A stretch of DNA of 64,000 nucleotides, from NCBI GenBank assembly GCA_030429865.1, contig JAUIFX010000001.1:2190-66189 (forward strand). Direction: 5' to 3'. A model generated the notes under the pieces. It saw nothing but the letters and a program-made list of their open reading frames with translations. It had not been told where the DNA came from and made no database searches. Numbering within the stretch: the stretch's first letter is position 1; each line of letters opens with the position of its first letter. The stretch is from Gammaproteobacteria bacterium (GTDB taxonomy: Bacteria > Pseudomonadota > Gammaproteobacteria > Ga0077536). Position numbers and translations under genes: made by a program. Below, piece by piece: positions 6,916-27,716 of the stretch.

Positions 6916-7785
6916 ATGAACACGGCCCACCCGGCTCCGAGCGAGCTGCCGGCATGGCTCTATTGGCAGGAAGCGGCGCCGATAGACAGCGTCGAAGCGC
7001 CCACGCGCGAAGCCTTCGTCGAGCGCTGGGGCGCGCCCGGCCTGCCGGTCAAGCTCGGCGGCCTGACCGACGCGTGGCCCGCCCGTGAACGCTGGTCGGT
7101 GGCCTTCTTCCGTCGCGAGCACGGCGCCTGTGACGTCACCGTCGAGGCGCGCGCTGCCGCCGGCGGTACGCGCAGTGTACGCCTCGCCGATTACCTGGCG
7201 ACACTCGACGGGCCGACGGGAAACGAGGCCTGGTACCTGAAGGACTGGGTCTTCCGCGAGCAGGCGCCGGCCCTCGCCGACGACTACCGCGTACCCGCCC
7301 AATTCCCGGACTATTTCGCCGAACTCGAGCCGGCGCTGCGCCCCGGTTACAGCTGGATCTACATCGGCCCCCGGGACTCCGCATCCAACTTCCACCGCGA
7401 CGTCGCCGGCACCAGCGCGTGGAACGCGCTGATCCGCGGCCGCAAGCTGTGGCTGTTCTTTGCGCCCGACGAACACGCCGCGGCCTACGACAACTCGCTC
7501 GACGCGTTCGTACGCGACCGCAGCCCGGATCCACGCCTCGCTGCGCGACGACCGCTCTACTGCATCCAGGAACCGGGCGAGATCGTATTCACACCGTCGC
7601 TGTGGTGGCACCAGGTCTACAATCTCGAGACGTCGATCGCCGTGACCGAGAACTTTGCCGACGACTGCAATCTCAAGCACGTGCTGCGCGGCTTGCGCGA
7701 GCGTCCCGAGGGCCGCCATACGGCACTTGCGCTGGCGCTGCTGGTCGGCTGCCGCCGCCCGCGCCCGATTGGAGCGCGGCAGTGA
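6916..7785 (+). CDS. JmjC/cupin-4-like hydroxylase-fold protein
   Basis: 289 aa with ...SWIYIGPRDSASNFHRDVAGTSAWNALIRGRKLWLFF...FTPSLWWHQVYNLETSIAVTENF, characteristic of the JmjC/cupin fold. Confidence 0.6.
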   Translation: MNTAHPAPSELPAWLYWQEAAPIDSVEAPTREAFVERWGAPGLPVKLGGLTDAWPARERWSVAFFRREHGACDVTVEARAAAGGTRSVRLADYLATLDGPTGNEAWYLKDWVFREQAPALADDYRVPAQFPDYFAELEPALRPGYSWIYIGPRDSASNFHRDVAGTSAWNALIRGRKLWLFFAPDEHAAAYDNSLDAFVRDRSPDPRLAARRPLYCIQEPGEIVFTPSLWWHQVYNLETSIAVTENFADDCNLKHVLRGLRERPEGRHTALALALLVGCRRPRPIGARQ

Positions 7786-7838
7786 CCTGTGGCAGCATGA
7801 GCGCCGTGTCGCCTCCGGCACGCGACGAGTAACCGCCT

Positions 7839-8210
7839 GTGAGCAATTCCAACGACGATGACCGCACGGTCGTGGTGAACCCGGCCTCGCTGCCGCCGCG
7901 CGTGCCCGATGAGGATGACGACGCCACGCCGTCCGATCGCACCGTCATCATGAAACCGTCGCAGCGCGCGCGCGAGGCGGCCGCGGCGCTCAATGCCGAA
8001 CGCCGCCGGCAGGAAAAGGCGAGCGCGGCAGAAGCGGCGGGCGAGGCCGTCGACTTCGACGTCACCCAGGGCATCGTCGCCGAAACGCCGGACGACGCCG
8101 TCGCGCCGCCGCGGGCGGCGGGCGGCAAGGGCATGCCCTGGGTGTTCGGATTCGTCGTCGGCGCGGTCGTCATGATCGGCGTCATCGTCGCCGTGCTCGC
8201 ACTGCTCTGA
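7839..8210 (+). CDS. Hypothetical acidic protein with C-terminal transmembrane anchor
   Basis: GTG start; Asp/Glu-rich N-terminus; single C-terminal hydrophobic helix WVFGFVVGAVVMIGVIVAVLALL. Start codon uncertain. Confidence 0.35.
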   Translation: MSNSNDDDRTVVVNPASLPPRVPDEDDDATPSDRTVIMKPSQRAREAAAALNAERRRQEKASAAEAAGEAVDFDVTQGIVAETPDDAVAPPRAAGGKGMPWVFGFVVGAVVMIGVIVAVLALL

Positions 8211-8268
8211 ACACGCGCTCGCGACGACGGCCGGGCCACGCGGCATCCCGGGCGCACCTGCCGGTCCG

Positions 8269-9633
8269 ATGAGCGAGCGCCTGCGCCTGATTCCCAGTGC
8301 CGATGTCGCCACCCTGGGCGCACATTGCTACCTTTTCGATCGCGCCGCGCTGCACGAAAACGTGGTGTCGGTGCCGACCCAGCGCGTTTCGCAGCGCATG
8401 CGCGAGGTCGTGCGGCGCATCCGCGCCGCGTGGCCCGACCATGCGCCACACCCGTACGGCGCCTTCGAGGCCCTGTTCGACAGCGCGGCGGAACGCAACG
8501 TGCTGGCGCAGCTGGCGCGTGCCGGTTACCTCGAGGCGGTGCCGCCGGTGGCGCCGGCACCCGGCGGCACGGCGGCGCGGAGCGGACACGCGGAGACCGG
8601 CGAGGCCACCGATCCGGCGGCGCACTTCCGCGAACGTGTCCTGCGCCACTTCTTCAAGCGCCCCGCGTTCTTCCACCTGCCGGAACAGATCGATGACGAC
8701 GACTGTGACGTTGCGCTCGTCGGCGTGCCGATTTCCTCGACGCTGGTCTCGAGCGGCACCGTCGACGCGCCCGCACGCCTGCGCCGCGACAGCCAGCGCG
8801 CCGGCTTCTGGTTCGACTTCCATGCCGACGGCGTCTATACCGAGACCGGCTGCGACGACAGTCCGCCGCGCCTGATCTGCGCGGGGGTGCGCGCGAAGGA
8901 CTTTGGCGACATCGGCAGCGACTGCCGCACCGTCGGCGAACTGTTCGCCCACGCGCGGCAGCTCGTCGACACGCGGCTCGTCCCGCATGGCATCCGCCCG
9001 TTGTTCATCGGGGGCGATCACGCGGTGACGTTCCCGCTCGTCGATGCCTACCTCCATCACCACCCGGGACTCGTCCTGATCCATCTCGATGCGCACAACG
9101 ACCTCTTCTACACCGAGCGGGTCGAGTTCAACCATGCCGGCCCGGTGCACGGTTTGCTCGTCCACTCCGGGCTCGACAAAGTGCTCTCACTCGGACTGCG
9201 CACCATCGGGGATCCCCGCGTCGGCCCCTACAAGCGCCTGGCCGCGAGCGGTGCGCTGCGCGAACGCGCGCACCTCTACTCGCTGCGGGCACTGGAACGC
9301 TGGCTCGACCGGCCAAGCGAGTTCCAGGCCCACCTGCGCGAATGCATCGGCGTTGACCGGCCGTGTTACCTCACCATCGATCTCGACGTACTGTCGGCCG
9401 ACTGCATCGCCGGACAGCTGTCGACCCCGGCAGGTCCCGGGCTCGGCTGGCACCAGCTGCTCGAGATGGTCCGCCTGGTGACGGAGACCTTCGACGTCGT
9501 TGCCTGCGACGTCGTCGAATTCAACCCGGATCACAAGGATCGCCCGGTCGACGATGCGCGCGAGATGACCGTCCTGCTGCTCGAGCTGATCGACGGACTC
9601 GCGCGCTGCGCGCGGCGCATCGTGCCGCCCTGA
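8269..9633 (+). CDS. Arginase/agmatinase/formiminoglutamase (ureohydrolase) family protein with ~150-aa N-terminal extension; candidate peptide arginase
   Basis: Ureohydrolase metal-binding motifs GGDHAVTFPLV, HLDAHNDL, TIDLDVLSADCIAG. Sits directly upstream of the NHLP precursor. Peptide-arginase role is inferred from context (OspR-type enzymes). Confidence 0.8.
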   Translation: MSERLRLIPSADVATLGAHCYLFDRAALHENVVSVPTQRVSQRMREVVRRIRAAWPDHAPHPYGAFEALFDSAAERNVLAQLARAGYLEAVPPVAPAPGGTAARSGHAETGEATDPAAHFRERVLRHFFKRPAFFHLPEQIDDDDCDVALVGVPISSTLVSSGTVDAPARLRRDSQRAGFWFDFHADGVYTETGCDDSPPRLICAGVRAKDFGDIGSDCRTVGELFAHARQLVDTRLVPHGIRPLFIGGDHAVTFPLVDAYLHHHPGLVLIHLDAHNDLFYTERVEFNHAGPVHGLLVHSGLDKVLSLGLRTIGDPRVGPYKRLAASGALRERAHLYSLRALERWLDRPSEFQAHLRECIGVDRPCYLTIDLDVLSADCIAGQLSTPAGPGLGWHQLLEMVRLVTETFDVVACDVVEFNPDHKDRPVDDAREMTVLLLELIDGLARCARRIVPP

Positions 9634-9963
9634 CGCCTGCGCTGCCGTGCACCACGCCGGGGCCGCCGTGACACGCCGCCAGGGCGTAACGGGCGATGTC
9701 CGGCAATACCTCGCCACTCGCTTCATCCGTTGTTGACGTGCCACCGGGGCCGTGCTCTCCTAGCCGGGCATCGGCAGTCAGCCCTCGGCTCCAGCGCTTC
9801 GGCGTCGACCGGTAGCGGGCAGCGGATGGCAGGGATGGTGCGCGCCCGGGGCCGCTCGACACGGCCTTCGACGCGACGCGATTAACGGGGCAGGTGCGTG
9901 CACACGCGCATCCGCGACGTCAGCCTTACGACGAAGAAAACCTGATAACGAGGGAGATAACAA

Positions 9964-10338
9964 ATGGCTCAATCACTCCAGCAAGTAGCCGAGCGCATTC
10001 ACAAGGTGAAAGAGGAAGTGGCCGTCCAGGCAGTCCAGGACGACGACTTCCGCGAAGCCCTGATGAGCAACCCGACTGCCGCCCTGTGCGAAGAGTACGG
10101 CCTCGAGCCGAGCTTCTTCGAGAACATCTCGGTGCGCGTCGAGGTCGAGAACCCGAACGAAGTGGTCATCGTGATCCCGGCCGAGGCGGCCGAGGAAGAA
10201 CTCAGCGACGAGCAGCTCGAGGCAGTCGCCGGAGGCGCCGCCTTCATCGCCGGTGTTGCGGCCGGTGCCGCGGTCATCAGCGCTGCCGCCGCTGCGGGGA
10301 CCATCGTGCAGAACACCCGCGCGGGACGCCGCTGGTAA
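9964..10338 (+). CDS. NHLP (nitrile hydratase leader peptide) family RiPP precursor
   Basis: 124 aa. Leader ...NPTAALCEEYGLEPSFFENISVRVEVENPNEVVIVIPAEAAEEELSDEQLEAVAGG matches the NHLP consensus, including the LSDEELEAVAGG double-Gly cleavage motif. Core AAFIAGVAAGAAVISAAAAAGTIVQNTRAGRRW. Strong SD (GAGGGAG) 7 nt upstream. Confidence 0.85.
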   Translation: MAQSLQQVAERIHKVKEEVAVQAVQDDDFREALMSNPTAALCEEYGLEPSFFENISVRVEVENPNEVVIVIPAEAAEEELSDEQLEAVAGGAAFIAGVAAGAAVISAAAAAGTIVQNTRAGRRW

Positions 10339-10430
10339 GCAACCAGGGACGCGCCGCCGGTTCCTGCTCACCCCGTCTCTCCAGGCATGGCGTGACGCGG
10401 CGAGGCGCGCGGCGAACGGCGCTACCAAGC

Positions 10431-10461
10431 GCCGGCGGCGGGCAGGAGGCCCGCCGCCGGC
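10431..10461 (+). terminator. Perfect 12-bp GC stem-loop downstream of the precursor gene (putative attenuator/partial terminator)
   Basis: gccggcggcggg-caggagg-cccgccgccggc, perfect inverted repeat with 7-nt loop, followed by GGUGAUGAUUUCCU. Lies between the precursor stop (10338) and the next ORF. Confidence 0.4.
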
Positions 10462-10493
10462 GGTGATGATTTCCTGAGCACGAGGCGCCTCGG

Positions 10494-10688
10494 ATGAGCC
10501 TGCGACCCCATAAACGCAACCGGATCCTGGCGCTTGCCTTCCTCGCGCTCGGCCTCACGTTCGCGGCGCTTGCCCTGGCCGGAGGCGAAGCACGACTGAC
10601 CCTGGGTCTGGCGGCGCTGACCAACCTGCTCGCGGCATTCGTGTTCTACCAGCAGCAGCGCGGCCGGGACGACTCGGGGGCCGACTAG
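10494..10688 (+). CDS. Small membrane protein (64 aa, two predicted TM helices)
   Basis: MSLRPHKRNRILALAFLALGLTFAALALAGG...LAALTNLLAAFVFYQQQRGRDDSGAD. Hydrophobic; immunity or accessory role is speculative. Confidence 0.35.
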   Translation: MSLRPHKRNRILALAFLALGLTFAALALAGGEARLTLGLAALTNLLAAFVFYQQQRGRDDSGAD

Positions 10689-10983
10689 ACCGTCCGCGCG
10701 CGCCGCGCGCCGCTCCGCGAGACCCGACGATGACTGCTTTCGCGCCCGACGCCGGGGCCTGCCGCTGGTCGACGCGCTGGCGTTGCCGTGCGCCAGGGCC
10801 TGCACCGTCAGCCCGGCGCGGGCGGGCCGCGGTGCATCACGGAGACCGTATGCCGAAACCATCGGGCGCCAGCACCGGCGTCGCGCGCAGGATTCCCCGG
10901 GTGCGCGCCGTGCCGCCCGGCTGCCCGCCAGCGAGCCGCCGGCACGCTTCGGCCGCCGCGCGCGGCTGGACGACCCGGGCCGC

Positions 10984-12162
10984 ATGAGCGGCTTGGACTC
11001 CGGGCGCCGGACTGCCGTCGACGCGCGCAGTCCGCACGACTTCAGCGTGGCCGACTACCTGCGCCCCCTCGCACGCGACCTGCCGCCAGCGCTGGTCGCG
11101 GCCGCGGCGCGCGATGCGATCATCGACCTCGCCGCGCAGCTGCCGGGCGCGATCACGAGCTTCTGCGGCTTCGAATGTCCACTCGGCAGCGTCGAGGCCC
11201 GCGCCGACTTCCTGCTCTGCAGCACGCGCGAAGAAGGCCATGCCAGCGTGCTCGCGGGTACGCACGGCGAGAGCGCACTCGCGCCCGCGCTGCGCGCGCT
11301 GCCGGCCTGGCAGCGCGTCGCGGAATTCTCCCGCGCATGGCTCGGCGGGGATGGCCTGCTTGCCGACCACCTCATGAACACCTGGCTCGAGTTCGACATC
11401 GGCCGCGACGCCGAGGCGCTCGCCGCGCCGAGCATGTTCTTCGGCACCCACCCTCCGCCGCCCGGCGCCGCTTCGCGCGCCCAGCTCGATGTCCTGCTCG
11501 CGGCACTGGCCGTGCTCGATCCGCCGGCCGTGCTGGGTCACCGTCGGCGCGCACTGGAAGCCCTGCTGGGAGCACTGCCGCCGGGCTGTCACGTGTTCCA
11601 GGTCGGTGCGATGTGGTCACGCGGTCAAGCGGCGGTACGGCTGTGCCTGCGCGGCGTCGAGCGTTCGGCCGTACCGTCCCTGCTCGGCGCGCTCGACTGG
11701 CCGGGATGCCGTGAAGACGTCGCCGTCCTGCTCGACACCGTGGGCGCACACGCGAGCCGCGTCGACGTCGATCTCGATCTCGGTGACCAGGTCGGTCCCA
11801 AGCTCGGCCTCGAGTGTTACTTCGGTACGGATGCCGGCAACGCCGCACGCCTCGCCGCGCTGACCGCGGCGCTCGTGCGCCACGGCGCGTGCACGCCGGC
11901 CGAGGCCGCGGCGCTCGATGCCTACCAGGGACTGACCCTGCAGGATGCCGCCCCGGCCGACTGGCCGCCTCATCTCGCCGCGCTCGCGCGTGCCGGCGGC
12001 CGCGGGCTGAGCAGCGCGCTGTGCCGCTGGGTGCACCACGTCAAGCTCGTGCACGAACCCGGCGCGGCACTGAGCGCGAAAGCCTACCTCGCCGTCGAGC
12101 ATCACCTGCTGGACCGGCGCCAGCTGCGCGCGCACATCGACGCCATGCGCAGCGGCGCCTGA
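10984..12162 (+). CDS. Hypothetical protein (392 aa), first gene of the translationally coupled modification operon
   Basis: Internal ATG (MSGLDSGRRTAV...) chosen because the upstream part of the track ORF (from 10783) is R-rich. No family recognised. Stop lies 6 nt before the halogenase start. Confidence 0.5.
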   Translation: MSGLDSGRRTAVDARSPHDFSVADYLRPLARDLPPALVAAAARDAIIDLAAQLPGAITSFCGFECPLGSVEARADFLLCSTREEGHASVLAGTHGESALAPALRALPAWQRVAEFSRAWLGGDGLLADHLMNTWLEFDIGRDAEALAAPSMFFGTHPPPPGAASRAQLDVLLAALAVLDPPAVLGHRRRALEALLGALPPGCHVFQVGAMWSRGQAAVRLCLRGVERSAVPSLLGALDWPGCREDVAVLLDTVGAHASRVDVDLDLGDQVGPKLGLECYFGTDAGNAARLAALTAALVRHGACTPAEAAALDAYQGLTLQDAAPADWPPHLAALARAGGRGLSSALCRWVHHVKLVHEPGAALSAKAYLAVEHHLLDRRQLRAHIDAMRSGA

Positions 12163-12168
12163 TCCCCG

Positions 12169-14727
12169 ATGCACGGCCCTTCCCCCGAGTACGACCTGGT
12201 CGTCGCCGGCGGCGGCCCCGCCGGCACCACGCTCGCCACGCTGGTCGCACGTGGCGGCCATCGTGTCCTGCTGCTCGAAGCAAACCGCTTTCCCCGCTAC
12301 CAGATCGGCGAGTCCCTGCTGCCGGCGACCTTCAACGGCCTGTTCCCGCTGCTCGGTATCGACGCCGACCCCGGCCGGCTGGGCGCACCGGTGCTCAAGC
12401 GGGGAGCGACGTTTCACTGGGGGCGCGACGACGACCTGTGGACGATGAACTTCGGCGGCGCGCCGGACGACACCGAACCCGCGCCCGACTGGCCGACGGC
12501 GTTCAACGTGCGCCGCGAGGTCTTCGACGACGTGCTGCTGGGCGCCGCCCGCGCGGCCGGTGTCGAGGTCCGCGAGGGCGCCCGCGTCACCGCTATCGAC
12601 GCCGACGGGGAACGCGTGCGCGGCGTCGAGGTGGGCAGCGACGACGGCACCCGCTGGCACGCGCGCGGCCGCTTCGTCGCCGGCGCAACCGGCCAGGGCT
12701 GTCCACTCGCGGCGCACGTCGGCACGCGCCAACCCTCGGTGTTCTTCCGCAACGCCTCGGTCTTCGGCTACTTCCATGGCGGCGCACGCCTGCCGGGCGC
12801 GCTCGCCGGCAACGTGCTGCTGGAAGCCTTCGACCAAGGCTGGGCGTGGTACATCCCGCTCAACGACGAACTGACGAGCGTCGGCGTGGTGCTGCATCAC
12901 CCGCACACGCAGCGTCTCGGCGGCGACCGCGAGGCCGCGTTCCGCGACAGCCTCGCGCGCTGCACCTACATCGACGGCTACCTGCGCGGAGCGCGTCGTG
13001 CCACCACGCCGCCCTACGCCGGGCTGCGCGTGCGTTCGGAGTTCTCCTACACGCACGCGCGCTTCTGGCGCGCAGGTGCGCTGCTGGTCGGCGACAGCGC
13101 CTGCTTCGTCGACGTGATTCTCTCCTCGGGCGTACACCTGGCGACGTTCGGTGCACTGCAGGCGGCGCGCGCTCTCAACGCCGTGCTCGACGGCGAATTG
13201 CCCGAGCGCCTCGCGCTCAACGAGTTCGAGCTGCGCTACCGTCTCGAGTTCACCCGCTTCTACCAGGGGCTGCTCGGCCTGCACGACATGGCCCACGATG
13301 GCGCCACCTACCGCGAATGGCTGCGCGGGATGCTGCGGCGTACCCAGGGCGTCTACCTCGACGACGCGGCGGCGCCGCCGGCGCAGCGCCGCCGCACCTG
13401 GCAGGCGCTGGCATGGCTGCGCAAGCAGAACGCGCAGCTGGTGGCGTCGACCGCGCCGCCCGCAATGGATGCCGCGGCCGCGCTGCCCGCGATCGCCGGT
13501 GAGCTGCTCGTGCATGCCGATGGACTGCGCTTCGCGCGCGCCGCCGAACAGACCGATGCCGGCGACGCGCCCGATCCGCGGGTCGACACGCCGCTCTACG
13601 ATTACGGCAAGCTGCACGCCAGCGCCGCTCCCTACCTGCAGGCCTGTCCCGACGGCGTCGACGGTGCGCTCGCGCTGGTCACGGCCGCGCGCAGCCGTGG
13701 CATCCACCTGCGCGTACGCGGCAGCGGGCACACCTTCAGCGGCGCGAGCCTGCCGCGCGAAGGCGAGGTGCTGGTGCGTACCAACGGCCTCGATCACTAT
13801 CACTTCCACGCGCCTGGCCGGCTCGTCGCCGGCGCCGGCGCCATGGTCTGGGACATCCGCGATCTCGCCCGCGACCACGGCTTCGACCTGCCCGTCTATA
13901 ACGGCGGTTGGGCCGGACCGACCCTCGGTGGCTACATCTGCGCCGGCGGGTTCGGCAAGAGCGGCCTGTCGGAGGATGCCGGCGGGCTGTGGGAGAACAT
14001 CTATGCCGTGCGTCTCGTCGACGGGCATGGGACGCTGCGCACGATCACGCGCGACGACGACGCCTTCCCGTGGCTGTTCGGCAGCTCCGGCCAGCTCGGC
14101 CTGCTGGTCGATGCCGAGCTGCGCCTGGTGCCGTACGCCGATGCCACGGGCGCGCCGCGCTACCCGGTCGATGAACGTGGCCGCGTACCGCGCCGCCAGG
14201 TCGATGACCCGCGCCTCAACGACGTCGCGCCACGGCCCGACGACGACAAGCGGCTGTTCTGGTTCACCTTGCTGGTGTCACCGGCGGAGGAAGCCGACGC
14301 CTGGGCCGGCCTCGAGCAGCTCGTCCTCGATCACCGCGACGTGCTCGTGCCGGATGGCGGCTGGGCCGGCCCGCAACTCGACGGTGCGCCGATCGGCTAC
14401 CGCTACGTGATCCGTTTCCACGAGTTCAACCCGCCGCTGGTCTACCCGCGCGCCGAGACGTTCCTGTGCATCGGCGTGATGAGCCTGCTCGCCAGTGGCG
14501 ATGCCGGGAGCGATGCGCGGCTGCGTGCGATCGAGCGCGATTTCGTCGCACTCGCGCGGACGCGCCGGCTGCGCCTGTACCTGCAGGCGGAAAACATCAC
14601 CGGGCAGGTAGACCAGCGCCGTTATTACGGGCGTGCGACCTGGGAACGCTTTCTCGAACTCAAACGCGACTTCGACCCCGCGGCGCTGTTCAATCGCGAC
14701 GTCGTCTTCCCTCCCGATGCGCTATGA
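12169..14727 (+). CDS. Fusion protein: flavin-dependent (tryptophan-type) halogenase N-terminal domain plus FAD-linked oxidase (PCMH-type FAD-binding) C-terminal domain
   Basis: N-terminus DLVVAGGGPAGTTLA (GxGxxG), GESLLP, and the halogenase signature WxWxIP (FDQGWAWYIPL). C-terminal half has RVRGSGHTFSGASL FAD-binding motif and oxidase-like body. Single uninterrupted 852-aa ORF. Confidence 0.8.
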   Translation: MHGPSPEYDLVVAGGGPAGTTLATLVARGGHRVLLLEANRFPRYQIGESLLPATFNGLFPLLGIDADPGRLGAPVLKRGATFHWGRDDDLWTMNFGGAPDDTEPAPDWPTAFNVRREVFDDVLLGAARAAGVEVREGARVTAIDADGERVRGVEVGSDDGTRWHARGRFVAGATGQGCPLAAHVGTRQPSVFFRNASVFGYFHGGARLPGALAGNVLLEAFDQGWAWYIPLNDELTSVGVVLHHPHTQRLGGDREAAFRDSLARCTYIDGYLRGARRATTPPYAGLRVRSEFSYTHARFWRAGALLVGDSACFVDVILSSGVHLATFGALQAARALNAVLDGELPERLALNEFELRYRLEFTRFYQGLLGLHDMAHDGATYREWLRGMLRRTQGVYLDDAAAPPAQRRRTWQALAWLRKQNAQLVASTAPPAMDAAAALPAIAGELLVHADGLRFARAAEQTDAGDAPDPRVDTPLYDYGKLHASAAPYLQACPDGVDGALALVTAARSRGIHLRVRGSGHTFSGASLPREGEVLVRTNGLDHYHFHAPGRLVAGAGAMVWDIRDLARDHGFDLPVYNGGWAGPTLGGYICAGGFGKSGLSEDAGGLWENIYAVRLVDGHGTLRTITRDDDAFPWLFGSSGQLGLLVDAELRLVPYADATGAPRYPVDERGRVPRRQVDDPRLNDVAPRPDDDKRLFWFTLLVSPAEEADAWAGLEQLVLDHRDVLVPDGGWAGPQLDGAPIGYRYVIRFHEFNPPLVYPRAETFLCIGVMSLLASGDAGSDARLRAIERDFVALARTRRLRLYLQAENITGQVDQRRYYGRATWERFLELKRDFDPAALFNRDVVFPPDAL

Positions 14728-16195
14728 CCCGAACCTGCCGCGGGCCGTGTTTCTGGGCCCCTCTTTCGCGCCCGCCGCGGCGGCCAGGCTGCTGCCCGCG
14801 AACTACTATCCACCGGTGCGCATGGGTGACGTCTATCGCCTGCTCGCCAGCGGCGTCGAGACCATCGTCATCATCGACGGCGTGTTCCACCAGAGCACGC
14901 CGGTATGGCAGCGCGAGATCCTCGCCGCGCTGGAAGCCGGTATCCGCGTCGTCGGCGGTGCCAGCATGGGCGCGCTGCGCGCCGCCGAACTCGCGCCCTA
15001 CGGCATGGAAGGCATCGGTACGATCTACGGCTGGTACCGCGATGGCGTGATCGATGGCGACGACGAGGTCGCGCTGGTCCACGCCGACGCCGAGCTCGAG
15101 TACCAGGCGCTGTCGGAGCCGCTCGTCAACATGCGCTACAATCTGGCGCGCGCGCGCGCGAACGCCGTCATCGACGCCGCCGCGCACGACGCGTTGTTGG
15201 CCGCGGCGCAACAGCGCTGCTTCACCGAGCGCAGCTGGCGCCGCCTCGAAGCGGCGCCCGCCTGGCAGGCTCTGGCGCCTGCGCGCCGCGCGGCGCTTGC
15301 CGCCTTCCTTGCGAACGATTATGTCGATCTCAAGCACGCCGACGCGCGAGCCGTGCTCGAACACGTGCGCCGCAGCACCGCAGACAGCCGTTCCGCGCTA
15401 CGCCCGCGCAGCCGGTGGTCGTATCCCGGCAGCGCCCGCGTACGTCTGCAGGCCGCGCTGGCGCCGGACGGCAGCCTGGTCGACGGCGCCACCGTGCTCA
15501 CCAGGGCACTCGCGGCCGACGACGCCTGGGTCGCTCCCTGTCTGCGCGAGGCGCACGCGCGCTGCTACCTCGAGGACTGGCTCGAGCGCTGCGCCGCGAT
15601 GCCGCCGGCGGAGACGCTGGCGCCGTTCCTGGCCAGGGTGACGCCTGCGCAGGCAAGCGGTGACGCAGCCGCGTTCGCGCGCGCCAACGGCCTGACCCGC
15701 GACGAACTCGACGCCGCGCTCGCGGCGCGTGCACGCCATGCCTGGCTGCTGGCCGGGGAAAGCGCCATGCCCGGGACGGACGACGCCGCGCACGACGCCC
15801 TCCTCGCCGCCCTCGGCGAGACGGCGGCGAGCGCGCGCGCGGCGGCACGCCGCGACGCCTGCCTCGCCGCCTGGGCGCGCCGGCGCGGCATCAGCTGCCC
15901 CGCAGCCGAGCACGACCGGCGCGCGCCGCACTGGTGTGCCGCGCACGGACTGTCCGCGGCGGCAGTCGACGCCGATGCGCGTCTCGCGCGCGCCCTCGCC
16001 GAACGGGTCCTTGCCGCCTGGCTGCTCGACCAGGAACCGGCACACTTCGGTTTCGAACGTTTCTCTGCCGACGCCGAGCTGCTGCTCGCGCTCAAGCTCG
16101 ATGGCCGCCACGCGGCGCTCGTCGCCGACCTGACCGGCGTGCGTGCCGCACCGGCACCACCGCACAAGGACAGCAGCGCCGCGGGGGCCGCATGA
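14717..16195 (+). CDS. tfuA: TfuA-like protein (YcaO partner for thioamidation) with long Ala-rich C-terminal extension
   Basis: N-terminal ~230 aa match the TfuA core (VFLGPSFA...GDVYRLL...IVIIDGVFHQSTPVWQREILAALEAGIRVVGGASMGALRAAEL...GIGTIYGWYRDGVIDGDDEVALVH). Overlaps the halogenase stop by 11 nt and the ycaO start by 4 nt (ATGA). Confidence 0.75.
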   Translation: MRYDPNLPRAVFLGPSFAPAAAARLLPANYYPPVRMGDVYRLLASGVETIVIIDGVFHQSTPVWQREILAALEAGIRVVGGASMGALRAAELAPYGMEGIGTIYGWYRDGVIDGDDEVALVHADAELEYQALSEPLVNMRYNLARARANAVIDAAAHDALLAAAQQRCFTERSWRRLEAAPAWQALAPARRAALAAFLANDYVDLKHADARAVLEHVRRSTADSRSALRPRSRWSYPGSARVRLQAALAPDGSLVDGATVLTRALAADDAWVAPCLREAHARCYLEDWLERCAAMPPAETLAPFLARVTPAQASGDAAAFARANGLTRDELDAALAARARHAWLLAGESAMPGTDDAAHDALLAALGETAASARAAARRDACLAAWARRRGISCPAAEHDRRAPHWCAAHGLSAAAVDADARLARALAERVLAAWLLDQEPAHFGFERFSADAELLLALKLDGRHAALVADLTGVRAAPAPPHKDSSAAGAA

Positions 16196-17358
16196 ACCAC
16201 GCCTTCGCCTACACGCGCGGCACCTACCGTATTGCGACCCCGCAGGCCACGCTGGCGCGCATCGCGCCGCTGCTGCCGGCATGCGGCATCACGCGCGTCA
16301 CCGCGGTCACCCACCTCGATCGCCTCGGCGTGCCGGTTTACTGCGCGATCCGCCCGAACGGCGTCGTCCTGCAGGTCTCCAACGGCAAGGGTCTGAGCGC
16401 CGACTGCGCGCGCGTCTCGGCGCTGATGGAAGCGATCGAGCTGCACCACGCCGAGAACCCGCCGCCAGGCGCGCTGCGCGAAGCCACCCAGGCCGAACTC
16501 GAAGCCGCCGGCGAACGCGTGCTCGCGCCGCCGGCCCTGCCCGGCTACAACGGGGCCTACTTCGCGCGGGACTTCCGCCTGGAATGGATCCGAGGAACGG
16601 CGCTGGATGACGGCGCCGCCGCCTGGGCCCCGGCCAGCCTGGCCTGCTTCGCGCGCTCGCCGGCACCGCTCGTCACCGACACCAACGGCCTGGCCTCCGG
16701 CAATCACCTGCTCGAAGCGAGCCTGCACGCGCTCTACGAGCTGCTCGAGCGCGACGCCCTGGCCGGTCTCGGGCAGGATGGCCGGCTCGCCATCCGCGAA
16801 CGCTGCCGCGTCGTCGACACCGCTTCGATCACCGATACCGATCTGCACGCGCTGATCGCCGCCATCGCCGCGCGCGAGAGCCACGTCGTGCTGCTGTGGG
16901 TGCCGAGCCGCGTCCCGGTGCACACGTTCTGGGCGGTACTGCTCAACCGCCGCAGCGGCGCGGCACCGGTATCGACGCTCAACCTGGGCGCCGGCTGCCA
17001 CCACGACCCGAAGGTCGCCGCGGCGCGTGCCGTGACCGAGGCGGCACAGTCGCGCCTGAGCTTCATCCATGGCGCGCGCGAGGATCGCGTTGCCAAGCCC
17101 GTCGACCGCGCGCGCGCGGTTTCGGAAAGCCCCGCCTATCGCTATTTCGATGGCCTCGAGGCCGACACCGCGTGGCACGAGCTGCTGCCTGCCGCGCATT
17201 TGCCCGGCGATCTCGAGCAGGCGCACGACTGGCTGGTCACGGCTTTGTCGGGCACCGGCATCCGCGCGTGGCGCTTCGACCTCACCCGCGCCGAACTCGG
17301 TATCCCGGTAGTCAAAGTCGTCGCGCCCGGCCTCGCCTTCAATGGACGCCTGCTGTGA
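16192..17358 (+). CDS. ycaO: YcaO domain protein (ATP-dependent backbone amide activation; thioamide or azoline forming)
   Basis: MNHAFAYTRGTYR...; YcaO ATP-binding motifs SALMEAIELHHAE and LHALYELLERDAL (ExxERD), GLASGN. Internal ATG coupled to the tfuA stop. Confidence 0.85.
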   Translation: MNHAFAYTRGTYRIATPQATLARIAPLLPACGITRVTAVTHLDRLGVPVYCAIRPNGVVLQVSNGKGLSADCARVSALMEAIELHHAENPPPGALREATQAELEAAGERVLAPPALPGYNGAYFARDFRLEWIRGTALDDGAAAWAPASLACFARSPAPLVTDTNGLASGNHLLEASLHALYELLERDALAGLGQDGRLAIRERCRVVDTASITDTDLHALIAAIAARESHVVLLWVPSRVPVHTFWAVLLNRRSGAAPVSTLNLGAGCHHDPKVAAARAVTEAAQSRLSFIHGAREDRVAKPVDRARAVSESPAYRYFDGLEADTAWHELLPAAHLPGDLEQAHDWLVTALSGTGIRAWRFDLTRAELGIPVVKVVAPGLAFNGRLL

Positions 17359-18133
17359 ACGCGGCGCACGCAAGACCGTCGTGACGGCGACACCCGCGAA
17401 CGCCCTGGTCAGCCGCGCCGCGGTGCTCGACGAGGCTGCCTGCGCGGCCATCGCCCAACGCGTGCACGCCCTGCGCGCGCACTGGGTCGCGCGCGACGCG
17501 GCCGCCTTCCACACGCTCGGCGCCGCGCTCTACCTCGACCGTCCGACGGCCGCGACGCGTGAACGCTTCGGTCTCGCCGATGCCGACCCGGCGCGCTACG
17601 GCACGCTCGCCCGCGCGACGAACACCCTGCTCGAAGCCGGCTTCGCCGAGCTCTACGCCGCCTTCGCCGACGCGCTCGCCGGCCTGCTCGATGCCGACGT
17701 ACGCTACGCGGCCGACCGCGCCCGCCCCGGCTTCCACGTCTTCGAGCACCACCCTTCCTACGCCCGGCAGTCCGCGCACGTGCCCCATTTCGACCGGCAG
17801 TACGAGTGCATCGACTGGCCGCAGGCGGCAACCATCGACTTCACGGCGGCGATCTCGATCACGCTGCCGATCCGTTTGCCGGCGCGTGGTGGCGGGCTGC
17901 GCGTGTGGGAGCTGAACCTGTTCGACGTACAGGCGCTGGGTCCCGCCGCGGCGCGCGAACGCGCGCGCCGGGCGCCCTCGCGCGTACATCGCTACGTGCC
18001 GGGTGAACTGGTCTGCCACCGCGGCCACCTCCTGCACCAGATCCAGCCCTGGCCCTCGCGGCCCGGCGACGAGCGCATCACGCTGCAGGCGCACGGCCTG
18101 TTCTACGACGGTGCCTGGCAACTCTACTGGTAG
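17342..18133 (+). CDS. Putative Fe(II)/2-oxoglutarate-dependent oxygenase-like protein
   Basis: Candidate HxD...H facial triad (HVPHFD ... CHRGHLLH). Overlaps the ycaO stop by 17 nt, so last gene of the coupled operon. Family assignment weak. Confidence 0.4.
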   Translation: MDACCERGARKTVVTATPANALVSRAAVLDEAACAAIAQRVHALRAHWVARDAAAFHTLGAALYLDRPTAATRERFGLADADPARYGTLARATNTLLEAGFAELYAAFADALAGLLDADVRYAADRARPGFHVFEHHPSYARQSAHVPHFDRQYECIDWPQAATIDFTAAISITLPIRLPARGGGLRVWELNLFDVQALGPAAARERARRAPSRVHRYVPGELVCHRGHLLHQIQPWPSRPGDERITLQAHGLFYDGAWQLYW

Positions 18134-18169: not shown

Positions 18170-20185
18170 CTAGCGCAGCCCGGCGAAGAACGCGGGTGGG
18201 GGCACATCGCCGGCCAGCCTCAGCAGAAGCCGCTCGCCCGCCGCGCGCGTATCGAGTTCGAGTTCACCACGGCGCCCGTCGCCGTCGGCACGCACGCGCA
18301 GGCTGACGTGGCGCCCCGCGTCGTGCAGCGCGGTGACCACGGTCCAATCCGCCGGGGCCGGGGGCGGCGGCGCCTCCGGATCGCAGGACTCGCGCACCAG
18401 CGAGAGCGCCGTGATACCTGCGGCGAGACGGTCGAGCAGCGCCTGGTCGGTGCCCGGCAGGGCGACCCGGGTGACCGTCGCCGAGAGGGCCTGGCCGAGT
18501 TCCGGGGCGGTCAGCTCGACGCGCTCGGCGCGTGCGTGGCGCAGCGCGAGCAGGCGCACGAGACCGTTGACGAAAGCCGAGGCGCGCAGCGTCATGGGCA
18601 GCCCCGCATGCCGATCGAGGCTCTCGATGGCCGCGCTCAGCGCGTGCTCGACACTGAGCAGGCGGCGCGCCGTCGGCCCGAAGGCGTGCGCACGAGTCAG
18701 CTCGCGAAAGCGCGCGAGGTCGAAACCAAGCGATGCCAGGGGCGCTGCAGCGTCGTTGAGCCGCGCCAGCGCGGCGCCTTCGCCGAGGGCCCCCGCCGTG
18801 TAGTCATCCATCACGTCGCAGGCCGCGGTCAGCACCGGCAGCACCGTCTCCTCGCCGGCGATGCACGCACCCGCGGCCAGCGCCTCCTGCGCCGCTGCCC
18901 AGGCGCCGGCGTCGTCGCGCTCGAGCGCGGCCAGCGAGGGCACCACCTGGGCCAGGCTGAGCTGCTCGACCAGGCTCCACGCGGCCAGCCACCAGTCGGT
19001 CAGGGCAGCGCTGCGGAAGCCGCCGTAGCTGCCGTGCACGAGGTGGTCGTGGACCTGGACCAGGCTGTGCTGCAGGCGCGCGACCGGCGCGAAGCGCGCG
19101 GTCGAGAAATCGCCGGCAGCCCGCGCCTCGAGCAGGCAGCCGGCGAGCAGGTGCAGACTCTGGAACGTGTTGAGCAGGCCACGCGAGTAGAGCGCATCGA
19201 CGTTGCCGGCCGGCGCGCCGAGCAGGCACACGCGCTCACCGACGACCCCCGCCGGCACGGTTCTGGCCCCGCGACTGCTCATCCACGGCCGCACCGGCGC
19301 GGCCTTGCCGAACTGCGCGGCCAGCGCCGGGTAACGCGCCAGCAGCGCGGACCACTCTTCGCCCGGCGACGCATCCCCCGGCGGGTGCACGCGGTTGTCG
19401 AAATTGACGCCGACGCTGACCAGGCGGTTGCGCGAGCGCGGGTGGTTGCCGAACGGGATCACCCACATCCAGGCGCCGTCGAGGATGTGATGCAGGGTGC
19501 CGTGGTGCCAGGGCAAGGCCGGCGGCGGCGCGGCGGCGCAGTCGTCGAAGGGCCGCACGCCGGTGAGGTGGGTGAAGATCACGCGCGAATCGGTCCGCAG
19601 CGGCGCCGTGCCCAGCGCCGCGACCCGCGGCAGCGTGGCGCCGTGACCGACGCAGTCGACGAGGTAACGGCCGTGCACGCGCCCGGCGCTGGTCGCGAGG
19701 CAGACGCCATCGTCCGCCACCGCTTCCTCGCCGCGGATTTCCGCCGTCAGCAGGGTGCAGCCGGCCTCGACGGCGCGCGCGCACAGCCAGGCATCGATGT
19801 CCTGGCGATACAAGTGCGCCTCGAGCACGTCCTCGGCGTAATTGACGGCGATATTGGCCCACCACTGCGCCTCGGTACGGGCGCTGCCGGCGGCATGGCG
19901 CACGAAGCCGAAGGACTTCTTAACCCCGGAGCTGGGCCCGATCTCGTCGTGGATGCGGTTCAGGTTGGCGATCGCGGCCAGTTCCTCCGCGCCGTAGCGC
20001 TCGGCCAGCACGCGCATCCACAGCACGGTCGGCTTGAGCAGGGATTCGCCGAGCGCGAAGCGCGGGTGCGGCGCCCGCTCGACGATCACGGTCGAGACCC
20101 CCTGGCGCGCAAGCACCAGTCCGAGCGCGCAACCGGTGATGCCGGCACCAAGAATGATGACCTCGCAGGACGCCGCTTCCATCAT
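18170..20185 (-). CDS. Flavin-dependent halogenase (second copy) with ~250-aa C-terminal extension
   Basis: MMEAASCEVIILGAGITGCALG (GxGxxG), GESLLKPT, and WxWxIP signature (GAWMWVIPF). ATG at 20185 chosen over the upstream GTG at 20224. Confidence 0.8.
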   Translation of the reverse strand: MMEAASCEVIILGAGITGCALGLVLARQGVSTVIVERAPHPRFALGESLLKPTVLWMRVLAERYGAEELAAIANLNRIHDEIGPSSGVKKSFGFVRHAAGSARTEAQWWANIAVNYAEDVLEAHLYRQDIDAWLCARAVEAGCTLLTAEIRGEEAVADDGVCLATSAGRVHGRYLVDCVGHGATLPRVAALGTAPLRTDSRVIFTHLTGVRPFDDCAAAPPPALPWHHGTLHHILDGAWMWVIPFGNHPRSRNRLVSVGVNFDNRVHPPGDASPGEEWSALLARYPALAAQFGKAAPVRPWMSSRGARTVPAGVVGERVCLLGAPAGNVDALYSRGLLNTFQSLHLLAGCLLEARAAGDFSTARFAPVARLQHSLVQVHDHLVHGSYGGFRSAALTDWWLAAWSLVEQLSLAQVVPSLAALERDDAGAWAAAQEALAAGACIAGEETVLPVLTAACDVMDDYTAGALGEGAALARLNDAAAPLASLGFDLARFRELTRAHAFGPTARRLLSVEHALSAAIESLDRHAGLPMTLRASAFVNGLVRLLALRHARAERVELTAPELGQALSATVTRVALPGTDQALLDRLAAGITALSLVRESCDPEAPPPPAPADWTVVTALHDAGRHVSLRVRADGDGRRGELELDTRAAGERLLLRLAGDVPPPAFFAGLR

Positions 20186-20264
20186 GTTTCCGAGAGTATT
20201 GCCGCGCGCCAGTATCCGGGGCACCGTGCGCGAATGCCAGTGCCGTGAGCAGACCCGATCGAGA

Positions 20265-20310: not shown

Positions 20311-20416
20311 TTGTTTTATTTGATACATCGCGTATCGTAAATCATCCTGCGCGAGCCTCGTGAAGGCGCACCACGCGCGCTGTGCGGCCACTGCCAACGA
20401 CAACCGGGGAGCGTCC

Positions 20417-27551: not shown

Positions 27552-27716
27552 GTGATGACGTCGCCGGCCGGCCCCACCGGCCGCGCATTGCACCACGGGC
27601 TGCCGCCCACCGCCTGTCCCCGGATCCTCGATAATCAGTATCGATATACTAAAATTAGATAGTTATATCGCTTTTCTCGTGTAAACTCTTACCTGATTCA
27701 GGCACGACGACATCCC

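What the first reader, a model, noticed from the sequence alone, without database searches (positions are those of the whole stretch)
10494..12162. Two unassigned ORFs inside the cluster: a 64-aa two-TM protein and a 392-aa hypothetical protein heading the modification operon
Neither matches a family I recognise. The position of the 392-aa protein, 6 nt upstream of the halogenase fusion and first in the coupled operon, suggests a dedicated function such as a precursor-recognition/RRE partner for YcaO or a scaffold. The small membrane protein could be an immunity factor or an export partner.
Basis: inference. Interest (0 to 1): 0.5.

Follow-up and report, generated by a model that had tools for sequence, protein, structure and literature searches.

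The report
RiPP tryptophan prenyltransferase plus small membrane protein
The 392-aa "hypothetical" protein is a barrel-shaped peptide prenyltransferase of the recently described MppC/NctPC family that most likely attaches a lipid (prenyl) group to the last tryptophan of the neighbouring precursor peptide, and the 64-aa ORF is a real, conserved two-helix membrane protein found only in this cluster type, whose role (possibly self-immunity) is still unproven.

Summary
Both ORFs are real and lie exactly where reported. Neither matches Pfam or NCBIfam.

The family has about 3,800 representatives. Members occur fused to LanM, 2OG oxygenases and sulfotransferases. Of 72 neighbouring double-glycine precursors, 62 end in Trp, as the window's does (…QNTRAGRRW). 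So this is a tailoring enzyme, not an RRE or a YcaO scaffold.

The 64-aa ORF is conserved in seven loci, always between the precursor and the prenyltransferase. It is under purifying selection (dN/dS down to 0.11). It has only 12 relatives in 5.8 billion proteins; five of these match contigs that carry the prenyltransferase subfamily and none is seen in another context. A role in immunity is plausible but untested.

Verdict: a new member of a known enzyme family, in an uncharacterised RiPP pathway combining thioamidation, halogenase-like enzymes and an arginase-family enzyme.

The parts
9964..10338 (+). Precursor peptide (124 aa). It has an NHLP-type leader with the L(X)4L motif LSDEQL and the double-glycine site AVAGG. 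The 33-aa core is AAFIAGVAAGAAVISAAAAAGTIVQNTRAGRRW, ending in Trp124.
   Evidence: TIGR03793 leader_NHLP scores 59.4 bits against a cutoff of 50.9. GC3 is 0.81. Orthologous precursors in L001, L003, L005, L009 and L016 all end in RAGR[RS]W.
10430..10462 (+). GC-rich hairpin between the precursor and the small ORF: a 14-bp stem with loop AGGAG. No T-tract follows. It may act as an attenuator or RNA-stability element (inferred).
   Evidence: Read directly from the sequence. Conserved in L076 and L077. Part of the MFE fold; the whole intergenic region has z = -1.84, which is not remarkable on its own.
10494..10688 (+). 64-aa small membrane protein with two predicted TM helices (9-27 and 33-51), a basic N-terminus and a charged C-terminal tail. 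Invariant residues: A13, A15, F16, L17, F23, A24, L26, A41, N44, V50, F51, R56.
   Evidence: Present in the same slot in 7 distinct loci. dN/dS is 0.11-0.69 for pairs with the window and 0.34 for L076 vs L077. Only 12 clusters exist in 5.8 billion proteins; five match PT-subfamily contigs and none is seen in another context.
10689..10983 (+). 295-nt spacer found only in the window/L076/L077 clade. The first ~80 nt are conserved and the rest has diverged. No conserved protein is encoded here. The 85-aa ORF at 10730-10987 is a chance high-GC ORF.
   Evidence: In L078, L001 and L003 the gap is only 18, 60 and 66 nt between the called gene ends.
10984..12162 (+). 392-aa ABBA (PT-barrel) peptide prenyltransferase of the MppC/NctPC family. 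Family-invariant residues: E64, D75, E136, D138, P149, R213, R219, H352, K354, K366, Y368.
12169..14727 (+). 852-aa fusion of a flavin-dependent halogenase-like domain (GGGPAG, WAWYIP) with a FAD_binding_4 oxidase domain.
14717..16195 (+). TfuA-family protein (492 aa from the homolog-supported start), the usual partner of thioamide-forming YcaO.
16192..17358 (+). YcaO (388 aa from the homolog-supported start), related to the McrA-thioamidation type.
17342..18133 (+). Conserved protein of 250-263 aa with unknown function (start at 17342 or 17381). Invariant His/Asp residues H146, H149, D151, H226, H229 and H232 suggest a metal site (inferred).
   Evidence: No family assignment was obtained.
18170..20224 (-). 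684-aa second flavin-dependent halogenase-like protein (GAGITG, WMWVIP).
6916..9633 (+). Upstream tailoring genes: JmjC/Cupin_8 hydroxylase (6916-7785), a 123-aa C-terminally anchored membrane protein (7839-8210), and an arginase-family (PF00491) protein of 454 aa (8269-9633).
   Evidence: The arginase and JmjC domains are fused in L003 and L005.
20360..30053 (+). Regulator and export genes: cNMP-binding protein (20360-20953), HlyD-like adaptor (20950-22392), C39-peptidase ABC transporter (22385-24637), second ABC transporter (24630-27551), outer-membrane factor (27717-30053).

Best explanation
The 392-aa gene encodes a soluble ABBA-fold (PT-barrel) peptide prenyltransferase of the MppC/NctPC family. 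Shown here: its fold, its full-length homology to the MppC ortholog, retention of every family-invariant polar residue, and its placement beside an NHLP precursor with the same L(X)4L-AVAGG leader end as MppE. Inferred: it binds the leader-bearing 124-aa precursor. Its basic residues (R213, R219, H352, K354, K366, Y368), with Mg2+ held by acidic residues (D75, E136, D138), bind and ionise a prenyl diphosphate inside the barrel. The resulting allylic cation is captured by the indole of the C-terminal Trp124 of the core. Chain length (C5-C20) and ring position are unknown. The other enzymes (two halogenase-like flavoproteins, YcaO/TfuA thioamidation, an arginase-family enzyme, JmjC) decorate the same peptide. 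The C39-ABC/HlyD/OMF system then cleaves after GG and exports it. The 64-aa gene encodes a helical-hairpin inner-membrane protein dedicated to this cluster sub-type. The most likely role, by inference only, is protection of the producer's membrane against the hydrophobic, lipidated product.

For: Family: 33% identity over 373 aa (E = 4e-55), and hhalign probability 100%, to the 375-aa protein next to the MppE ortholog and LanM in Moorena producens. MppC is a biochemically proven leader-dependent Trp C5-geranyltransferase (PMC12715784). NctPC is an αββα-barrel PT domain that geranylgeranylates Trp (PMC13290415, citing Hubrich 2024).

Family breadth: 3,787 representatives. Fusions to LanM, 2OG oxygenase, FAD_binding_4 and sulfotransferase tie the domain to RiPP tailoring. 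Eleven invariant residues across 109 diverse members are all present in the window protein; the ten polar ones lie on or next to barrel strands, eight of them in i/i+2 pairs.

Acceptor: 62 of 72 unique double-glycine cores near family members end in Trp and 69 of 72 contain Trp. Trp is 1.6% of residues elsewhere in the cores, and 2.5% of arbitrary ORFs in the same loci end in Trp. The window core has exactly one Trp, at its C-terminus.

Synteny: the gene is kept in the same cluster in every locus fetched for 6 of its 12 close homologs.

Small ORF: same slot in 7 loci. Against L077, dN/dS = 0.11 with 17 of 23 differences at third positions. Only 12 relatives were found; five match PT-subfamily contigs and none is seen in another context. 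Its position directly after the bacteriocin-like precursor is typical of immunity genes (established knowledge of class II bacteriocin loci). The core gives weak hits to class IIb bacteriocin models.
Against: There is no biochemical evidence for this protein. The prenyl donor is unknown, and no prenyl-diphosphate synthase was found among the annotated cluster genes. TM-scores to solved prenyltransferases are only 0.35-0.55 and sequence identity 8-16%.

The comparator is an ortholog identified by synteny (its MppE is 87% identical to the published one), not the published MppC itself. MppC's leader-binding W336/F340 could not be mapped. The likeliest equivalents in the window protein are Ala333/Ala337. 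MppC acts on an internal Trp in a lanthionine ring, whereas this core has no Cys, and no LanM turned up among the annotated cluster genes or in the sub-clade's related loci. PatF shows that a PT barrel can be catalytically inactive.

For the 64-aa protein: L005 and L016 have the same core type but no such ORF in the sequence available. One close pair has dN/dS = 0.60. It has no similarity to any known immunity family.
Confidence: 0.75

Rival explanations
1. The 392-aa protein is a non-catalytic PT-barrel protein (as PatF is in the patellamide pathway). It would only bind the leader or core and present the precursor to YcaO/TfuA or the halogenases. This is a scaffold role.
Against: All 11 residues invariant across 109 diverse family members are retained, and the MppC ortholog shares them. 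Of these, 10 are polar (acidic, basic, His or Tyr). Purifying selection (dN/dS 0.2-0.43) is similar along a protein whose conserved polar residues sit on barrel strands. Prenyl donors are primary metabolites, so a dedicated synthase is not needed.
Confidence: 0.1
2. The protein is an active prenyltransferase, but its acceptor is not Trp. It would prenylate an Arg guanidine, or the ornithine amine made by the arginase-family enzyme, in the conserved RAGRRW tail, as the cyanobactin enzymes AgcF and DciF do on Arg.
Against: Across the whole family, the feature shared by the neighbouring cores is a terminal Trp (62 of 72), not Arg. Most cores end in KW, GW or PW without Arg. Both characterised relatives, MppC and NctPC, act on Trp (PMC12715784, PMC13290415). 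The closest solved structures are indole prenyltransferases.
Confidence: 0.1
3. One reading: the 392-aa protein is an RRE (PqqD-like) precursor-recognition partner for YcaO.
For: Position at the head of the operon that contains YcaO. No family assignment by sequence.
Against: No winged-helix RRE element appears in the model, and residues 17-392 form a single PT barrel. No structural hit is an RRE protein. TfuA, the usual partner of thioamide-forming YcaOs, is encoded next to YcaO. Most relatives of the protein occur with LanM and without YcaO: 40 of 76 loci have LanM, and YcaO appears only in this sub-clade and L017.
Confidence: 0.02
4. The 64-aa protein is not an immunity factor. It would instead be a membrane accessory of the pathway, for example an anchor that brings the prenyltransferase or the lipidated intermediate to the ABC exporter, or a signalling or regulatory partner.
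For: It is strictly co-inherited with this prenyltransferase sub-clade and sits 18-66 nt upstream of the PT gene in L078, L001 and L003. Clusters with the same core type in L005 and L016 lack it, so it is not indispensable for surviving the product. A second ABC transporter could provide immunity.
Against: The export machinery is already complete without it. The gene follows the precursor directly, as immunity genes usually do. No data distinguish the two roles.
Confidence: 0.35

Closest known systems
MppC (Moorena producens mpp cluster), a leader-dependent lanthipeptide prenyltransferase (Wakeel, McShan & Agarwal, JACS 2025, PMC12715784)
   Same: Same protein family: 33% identity over the full length to the syntenic ortholog, with hhalign probability 100%. 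Same αββα barrel. It is not in Pfam and is not sequence-related to the cyanobactin F-family. It is encoded beside a long structured-leader precursor ending ...EEELSDxxLEAVAGG with an L(X)4L motif. The core contains Trp. A Trp halogenase and arginase-like and oxygenase genes lie in the same cluster.
   Different: MppC acts on an internal Trp of a LanM-cyclised heptapeptide with a Nif11 leader. Here the leader is NHLP, and neither a LanM gene nor a Cys in the core is present. The Trp is the C-terminal residue of a 33-aa hydrophobic core. The partner chemistry is YcaO/TfuA thioamidation. The host is a γ-proteobacterium-like, 70% GC organism. The helix positions that probably correspond to MppC's W336/F340 are Ala here (mapping uncertain).
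NctPC, a prenyltransferase-cyclase fusion (Hubrich et al., Chem 2024; described in PMC13290415)
   Same: An αββα-barrel prenyltransferase domain with low similarity to cyanobactin prenyltransferases. It acts on Trp of a RiPP precursor. Long fusion members of the family with no Pfam hit in the extra region turned up in my search (P0095, P0112, P0129, P0153).
   Different: NctPC carries an MstE-like terpene cyclase domain and uses GGPP. The window protein is a stand-alone prenyltransferase domain, and no terpene-cyclase family was detected among the annotated cluster genes. I could not obtain NctPC's sequence, so direct homology was not tested.
Bacterial and fungal indole prenyltransferases of the DMATS/ABBA superfamily (MpnD, CymD, TleC, IptA, PriB, FgaPT2)
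   Different: There is no detectable sequence relationship: no Pfam Trp_DMAT hit and no PDB hit with family profiles. Those enzymes act on free amino acids or small molecules, not on leader-bearing peptides.
Cyanobactin F-family prenyltransferases (PagF, PatF, KgpF, LimF, AgcF/DciF)
   Different: They are about 300 aa, leader-independent, act on macrocycles released by PatA/PatG-type proteases, and are not sequence-related (PMC12715784 SI). No PatA/PatG-type protease family was detected among the annotated cluster genes.
PalQ/ComQ, trans-IDS-like Trp prenyltransferases (PMC10853753)
   Same: PalQ prenylates the C-terminal Trp of an NHLP-type precursor, which is the same chemistry and position proposed here.
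   Different: PalQ and ComQ have an unrelated all-α isoprenoid-synthase fold. The similarity is an analogy, not homology.
Small membrane immunity proteins of class II bacteriocin loci
   Same: A small TM protein encoded immediately downstream of a double-glycine precursor, in a locus with a C39-ABC exporter.
   Different: It has no sequence similarity to any described immunity family, and its function is untested.

Membership tests
ABBA / PT-barrel aromatic prenyltransferase superfamily | A 10-stranded antiparallel β-barrel built from five ααββ repeats and surrounded by helices | tested here: met
ABBA / PT-barrel aromatic prenyltransferase superfamily | A ring of basic and Tyr residues in the barrel lumen that binds the prenyl diphosphate, with or without Mg2+-binding Asp | tested here: inconclusive
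   Family-invariant R213, R219, H352, K354, K366, Y368, E64, D75, E136 and D138 lie on or next to barrel strands, eight of them in i/i+2 pairs.
ABBA / PT-barrel aromatic prenyltransferase superfamily | Catalyses prenyl transfer | not testable with these tools
   This needs an enzyme assay or in vivo co-expression.
MppC/NctPC-like leader-dependent RiPP prenyltransferases | Full-length sequence homology to MppC | tested here: met
   BLASTP gives 33% identity over 373 aa, E = 4e-55; hhalign gives probability 100%, E = 2.4e-56, to L007:10745-11872. That is the only PT-barrel homolog found in the Moorena producens cluster, where it sits next to the Nif11 precursor (87% identical to MppE) and LanM. 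Caveat: this is an ortholog, not the published PAL protein.
MppC/NctPC-like leader-dependent RiPP prenyltransferases | Encoded with a Nif11/NHLP precursor that has a structured leader, an L(X)4L motif and a double-glycine site | tested here: met
   The precursor at 9964-10338 matches TIGR03793 above its cutoff and ends ...EEELSDEQLEAVAGG; compare MppE ...EEELSDSELEAVAGG.
MppC/NctPC-like leader-dependent RiPP prenyltransferases | A Trp acceptor in the core | tested here: met
   There is a single Trp, at the core's C-terminus. Of family-linked cores, 62 of 72 end in Trp. That this Trp is the actual acceptor is inferred.
MppC/NctPC-like leader-dependent RiPP prenyltransferases | Hydrophobic leader-binding side chains (MppC W336/F340) | tested here: inconclusive
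   The numbering could not be mapped. The PAL sequence was not obtainable and the L079 gene is truncated. Candidate equivalents are window A333/A337 or W327/L331.
Lanthipeptide prenyltransferase (in the sense of acting on a LanM-cyclised core) | A LanM in the cluster and Cys plus Ser/Thr in the core | tested here: not met
   No DUF4135/LANC_like protein was found among the cluster genes scanned, and the core has no Cys. LanM is near the prenyltransferase in 40 of 76 other loci but in none of this sub-clade's.
DMATS family (Pfam Trp_DMAT) / Orf2-type (PTase_Orf2) / cyanobactin F-family | Match to the family's sequence model | tested here: not met
   No Pfam hit at E <= 0.01 for the protein, and none for 109 family members at E <= 1. 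No PDB sequence hit with either family profile at E <= 10.
RRE (PqqD-like RiPP recognition element) | A winged helix-turn-helix of three helices and a three-stranded sheet; PqqD-family sequence match | tested here: not met
   There is no such element in the model, no PqqD hit, and no RRE protein among the structural neighbours.
Bacteriocin immunity protein (for the 64-aa ORF) | A small membrane protein co-transcribed with, and next to, the bacteriocin structural gene | tested here: met
   A two-TM, 64-aa protein starting 155 nt downstream of the precursor on the same strand, in the same slot in 7 loci.
Bacteriocin immunity protein (for the 64-aa ORF) | Confers resistance to the cognate peptide, or is homologous to a proven immunity family | not testable with these tools
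   No homology to any named family. The function needs genetics.

The most novel reading that the evidence does not exclude
The window encodes an uncharacterised RiPP type from γ-proteobacteria-like organisms. It would be a class-IIb-bacteriocin-like hydrophobic peptide that is prenylated on its C-terminal Trp by an MppC-family enzyme working outside any lanthipeptide context. The same peptide would also be thioamidated (YcaO/TfuA), halogenated, hydroxylated (JmjC) and de-guanidinated by a canonical PF00491 arginase-fold enzyme rather than the known PF12640 peptide arginases. The orphan 64-aa two-TM protein would be its dedicated immunity determinant. More broadly, 'hydrophobic core + C-terminal Trp' would be the general recognition signature of this ~3,800-member prenyltransferase family, giving a sequence rule for mining C-terminally lipidated peptides.
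Probability: 0.35. Interest if true: 0.65.

Novelty: new member of a known kind. Interest (0 to 1): 0.45.

Why it matters
The result turns a "hypothetical protein" into a testable enzyme assignment. It extends the newly described leader-dependent RiPP prenyltransferase family from lanthipeptides and proteusins of cyanobacteria to a YcaO/TfuA thioamide pathway. The comparative result that 86% of neighbouring precursors end in Trp gives a simple rule for predicting the modification site and for mining lipidated peptides, which interest researchers as membrane-active antimicrobials and as peptide-lipidation biocatalysts. I could not check whether this rule has already been published. The small membrane protein is an orphan family found so far only with this cluster type, which makes it a well-defined candidate for an immunity test.

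Tried and rejected
- Pfam, NCBIfam and PDB sequence searches found nothing for the 392-aa and 64-aa proteins. This held for the single sequences and for the 13- and 109-member profiles. The one PDB hit, a mitochondrial ribosomal protein at E = 0.07, is noise.
- The word-index homology search suggested a tiny family of 12 proteins. The exhaustive profile search showed that this was a sensitivity artefact, with 3,787 representatives.
- PalQ, the "C-terminal Trp prenyltransferase", was considered as the family and rejected because it has an isoprenoid-synthase fold.
- The upstream extension of the PT ORF (TTG 10783) and the 85-aa ORF at 10730-10987 were considered as coding and rejected. GC2 is 0.77-0.84, and the protein sequence is not conserved in L076/L077 although the frame stays open.
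- No sigma-70-like promoter was found in 9600-12300, and the single terminator-like site (inside the PT gene) is no more than chance gives.
- Mapping MppC's W336/F340 failed.
- The 263-aa neighbour could not be assigned. BLASTP against the 2OG-oxygenase fusion partner was not significant. Pfam gave only a sub-threshold WelO5 hit for one homolog. The PDB profile search found nothing. The single-sequence model had pLDDT 39 and was not used.
- The AFDB fold library was unavailable.
- The paper describing NctPC (PMC11484575) is not held.
Full report
**Observation**

The window is about 70% GC, so mechanical ORFs abound. I used codon-position GC to separate real genes from chance ORFs.

The two ORFs of the finding are at the stated coordinates. 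ORF 10494-10688 (64 aa) has GC1/2/3 = 0.77/0.48/0.83. ORF 10984-12162 (392 aa) has 0.80/0.55/0.85. The in-frame upstream extension to TTG 10783 has GC2 = 0.77 and looks non-coding.

Homolog N-termini and an identical NCBI gene call support the 10984 start. The 392-aa stop (12162) lies 6 nt before the next ATG (12169). Downstream genes overlap: TfuA ATG 14717 against the stop at 14727, and YcaO ATG 16192 against the stop at 16195. "First gene of a coupled operon" is therefore correct. Neither protein matches Pfam-A or NCBIfam.

**Context**

The surrounding genes form a RiPP cluster:

| Coordinates | Strand | Gene product |
|---|---|---|
| 6916-7785 | + | JmjC/cupin hydroxylase |
| 7839-8210 | + | 123-aa tail-anchored membrane protein |
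| 8269-9633 | + | arginase-family protein |
| 9964-10338 | + | NHLP-leader precursor |
| 10494-10688 | + | 64-aa ORF |
| 10984-12162 | + | 392-aa ORF |
| 12169-14727 | + | flavin halogenase-like / FAD_binding_4 fusion |
| 14717-16195 | + | TfuA |
| 16192-17358 | + | YcaO |
| 17342-18133 | + | conserved unknown, 250-263 aa |
| 18170-20224 | - | second halogenase-like flavoprotein |
| 20360-20953 | + | cNMP-binding protein |
| 20950-22392 | + | HlyD-like adaptor |
| 22385-24637 | + | C39-peptidase ABC transporter |
| 24630-27551 | + | second ABC transporter |
| 27717-30053 | + | outer-membrane factor |

The precursor ends ...EEELSDEQLEAVAGG | AAFIAGVAAGAAVISAAAAAGTIVQNTRAGRRW, so the core has a single Trp and it is the last residue.

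**The 392-aa protein: fold**

The word-indexed search found only 12 relatives, none with a Pfam domain. An AlphaFold2 model built on their alignment is confident (pLDDT 87.6, pTM 0.88). It shows five helix-helix-strand-strand units giving 10 main strands.

- TleC, Orf2/NphB type, AmbP1
- CloQ, EpzP

**The 392-aa protein: family**

An exhaustive profile search shows that the family is large. It has 3,787 representatives at 50% identity with E <= 1e-3, and 1,202 with E <= 1e-30.

Some members are fused to other RiPP tailoring domains:

- a class II lanthipeptide synthetase (DUF4135 + LANC_like, P0079)
- 2OG-Fe(II) oxygenases
- FAD_binding_4
- sulfotransferases

The literature describes such a family. 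MppC from the Moorena producens mpp cluster is an αββα-type prenyltransferase unrelated in sequence to cyanobactin prenyltransferases. It requires the Nif11 leader (its structured nucleus and L(X)4L motif) and geranylates Trp82 at indole C5. Its sequence network contains Cyanobacteriota, Myxococcota and Pseudomonadota, and members co-localise with LanM, Nif11 and, in 9 cases, NHLP precursors (PMC12715784 and its SI). NctPC is an αββα-barrel prenyltransferase domain fused to an MstE-like cyclase that geranylgeranylates Trp (PMC13290415).

To test membership, I located an mpp-type cluster through the published MppE sequence. In Moorena producens locus L007, a 375-aa protein without a Pfam domain follows the Nif11 precursor and lies near LanM. 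The window protein aligns with it end to end: 33% identity and E = 4e-55 by BLASTP, probability 100% by hhalign.

Across 109 diverse members, 11 residues are invariant: E64, D75, E136, D138, P149, R213, R219, H352, K354, K366 and Y368. All are present here. The ten polar ones lie on or beside barrel strands, eight of them in i/i+2 pairs. That pattern fits a lumen site for diphosphate, Mg2+ and a catalytic acid/base.

Profiles of the family do not reach any Pfam or PDB prenyltransferase by sequence.

**Acceptor residue**

A scan of GTDB species genomes returned 68 loci from cyanobacteria, Acidobacteriota, Chloroflexota, Bacteroidota, Myxococcota and γ-proteobacteria. In the loci fetched up to that point I searched for double-glycine precursors.

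| Measure | Value |
|---|---|
| Unique cores found (in 36 loci) | 72 |
| Cores ending in Trp | 62 (86%) |
| Cores containing Trp | 69 |
| Trp frequency elsewhere in the cores | 1.6% |
| Arbitrary ORFs in the same loci ending in Trp | 2.5% |

The cores are not phylogenetically independent, but the contrast is very large. Together with the Trp specificity of MppC and NctPC, this makes the C-terminal Trp124 the most likely acceptor.

PalQ shows that C-terminal Trp prenylation of an NHLP precursor exists in nature, but it uses an unrelated fold.

**Cluster sub-type**

LanM is near the prenyltransferase gene in 40 of 76 loci. YcaO with TfuA, together with both halogenase-like proteins and the 250-aa unknown, occurs only in the window's sub-clade: L001, L003, L005, L008, L076 and L078. 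The arginase-family and JmjC genes are seen there wherever the upstream region is held (L001, L003, L005, L009, L077). L016 is a partial case.

This is therefore a non-lanthipeptide branch of the family. The Moorena clusters also combine arginase-like (PF12640), oxygenase and, in L007, Trp-halogenase genes with the prenyltransferase. The window cluster contains the same kinds of enzymes, some drawn from different families.

**The 64-aa protein**

It has two hydrophobic segments (9-27 and 33-51), a basic N-terminus and a charged tail.

A homolog of 62-68 aa occupies the same slot between the precursor and the prenyltransferase in seven distinct loci: window, L076, L077, L078, L001, L003/9 and L008. 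Thirteen positions are invariant, including N44 in TM2.

Codon analysis shows purifying selection:

| Pair | dN/dS | Note |
|---|---|---|
| window vs L077 | 0.11 | 17 of 23 differences at third codon positions |
| L076 vs L077 | 0.34 | |
| window vs L076 | 0.60 | |
| prenyltransferase gene (control) | 0.2-0.43 | |

The rest sit on short contigs, and none is seen in another context.

The ORF is absent from L005 and L016, which have the same core type.

Its function cannot be derived from sequence. Three points make immunity the best guess, with a membrane accessory role nearly as likely:

- its position directly after a bacteriocin-like precursor (the core gives weak hits to class IIb bacteriocin models)
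- the hydrophobic, lipidated nature of the predicted product
- the presence of a complete exporter

**Intergenic features**

A 14-bp GC hairpin (10430-10462, loop AGGAG) lies between the precursor and the small ORF and is conserved in close relatives. No T-tract follows it.

A 295-nt spacer (10689-10983) exists only in the window/L076/L077 clade and encodes no conserved protein.

No promoter-like site was found, and the single terminator-like site is no more than chance gives.

**Verdict**

It is wrong on mechanism for the large protein, which is a tailoring prenyltransferase and not an RRE or YcaO scaffold.

This is a new member of a known enzyme family described in 2024-2025, placed in an uncharacterised RiPP pathway, together with an orphan small membrane protein whose role remains to be tested.

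Noticed in passing
window 8269-9633: The cluster's 'arginase' matches the canonical arginase/agmatinase family PF00491 (E = 5e-33). It does not match PF12640, the family of all characterised peptide arginases (OspR type; PMC12703449). It has an N-terminal extension of about 140 aa and is fused to the JmjC hydroxylase in L003 and L005. It may be a second, independent kind of peptide Arg-to-Orn (or guanidino-hydrolysing) enzyme acting on the conserved RAGRRW tail.
   Followed up: partly
window 17342-18133 (alternative start 17381): A conserved protein of 250-263 aa is present in every locus of this sub-clade for which that region is held (41-86% identity). It has invariant His/Asp residues (H146, H149, D151, H226, H229, H232) and no Pfam, NCBIfam or PDB sequence match. 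One homolog gives a sub-threshold WelO5-like hit (E = 0.046). The single-sequence AF2 model was unusable (pLDDT 39).
   Followed up: partly
window 12169-14727 (+) and 18170-20224 (-): Two flavin-dependent halogenase-like proteins both carry the WxWxIP signature (WAWYIP at 225, WMWVIP at 252). One is fused to a FAD_binding_4 oxidase domain. The core, however, has only one Trp, one Phe and no Tyr. Several enzymes, including the prenyltransferase, may therefore converge on the same C-terminal Trp.
   Followed up: partly
loci L008-L075 (family-wide): Precursors next to this prenyltransferase family typically have a long hydrophobic, TM-like core ending in K/G/P-Trp; 62 of 72 end in Trp. They often occur in tandem arrays of 2-5 paralogous precursor genes (for example L019, L027, L071).
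   Followed up: partly
window 10430-10462: A perfect 14-bp GC hairpin with loop AGGAG lies between the precursor gene and the small ORF and is conserved in L076 and L077. No T-tract follows it, so it is not a canonical intrinsic terminator. It may be an attenuator or mRNA-stabilising element that sets the ratio of precursor to enzyme expression.
   Followed up: partly
window 10689-10983: A 295-nt spacer between the small ORF and the prenyltransferase gene is found only in the window/L076/L077 clade; the gaps are 18-66 nt in L078, L001 and L003. The first ~80 nt are conserved and the rest has diverged. One frame stays open in all three loci, but the protein sequence is not conserved.
   Followed up: yes
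window 7839-8210: A 123-aa protein with an acidic N-terminal region and a single C-terminal TM helix is encoded between JmjC and the arginase-family gene. A no-Pfam ORF of 123-125 aa occupies the same slot in L001 and L077, so the cluster encodes a second small membrane protein of unknown role.
   Followed up: no
L007 (Moorena producens) 7067-9713 and 15685-17019; L079 3065-5702: The mpp-type lanthipeptide clusters also encode two PF12640 peptide-arginase-like proteins (one fused to a 2OG oxygenase) beside the prenyltransferase; L007 also encodes a Trp halogenase. This is the same set of chemistries as in the window cluster, built partly from unrelated enzyme families.
   Followed up: no
window 24630-27551: A second ABC transporter of 973 aa has an N-terminal extension of about 400 aa before the membrane domain. 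It sits directly after the C39-peptidase ABC transporter and is a possible alternative immunity or export component.
   Followed up: no
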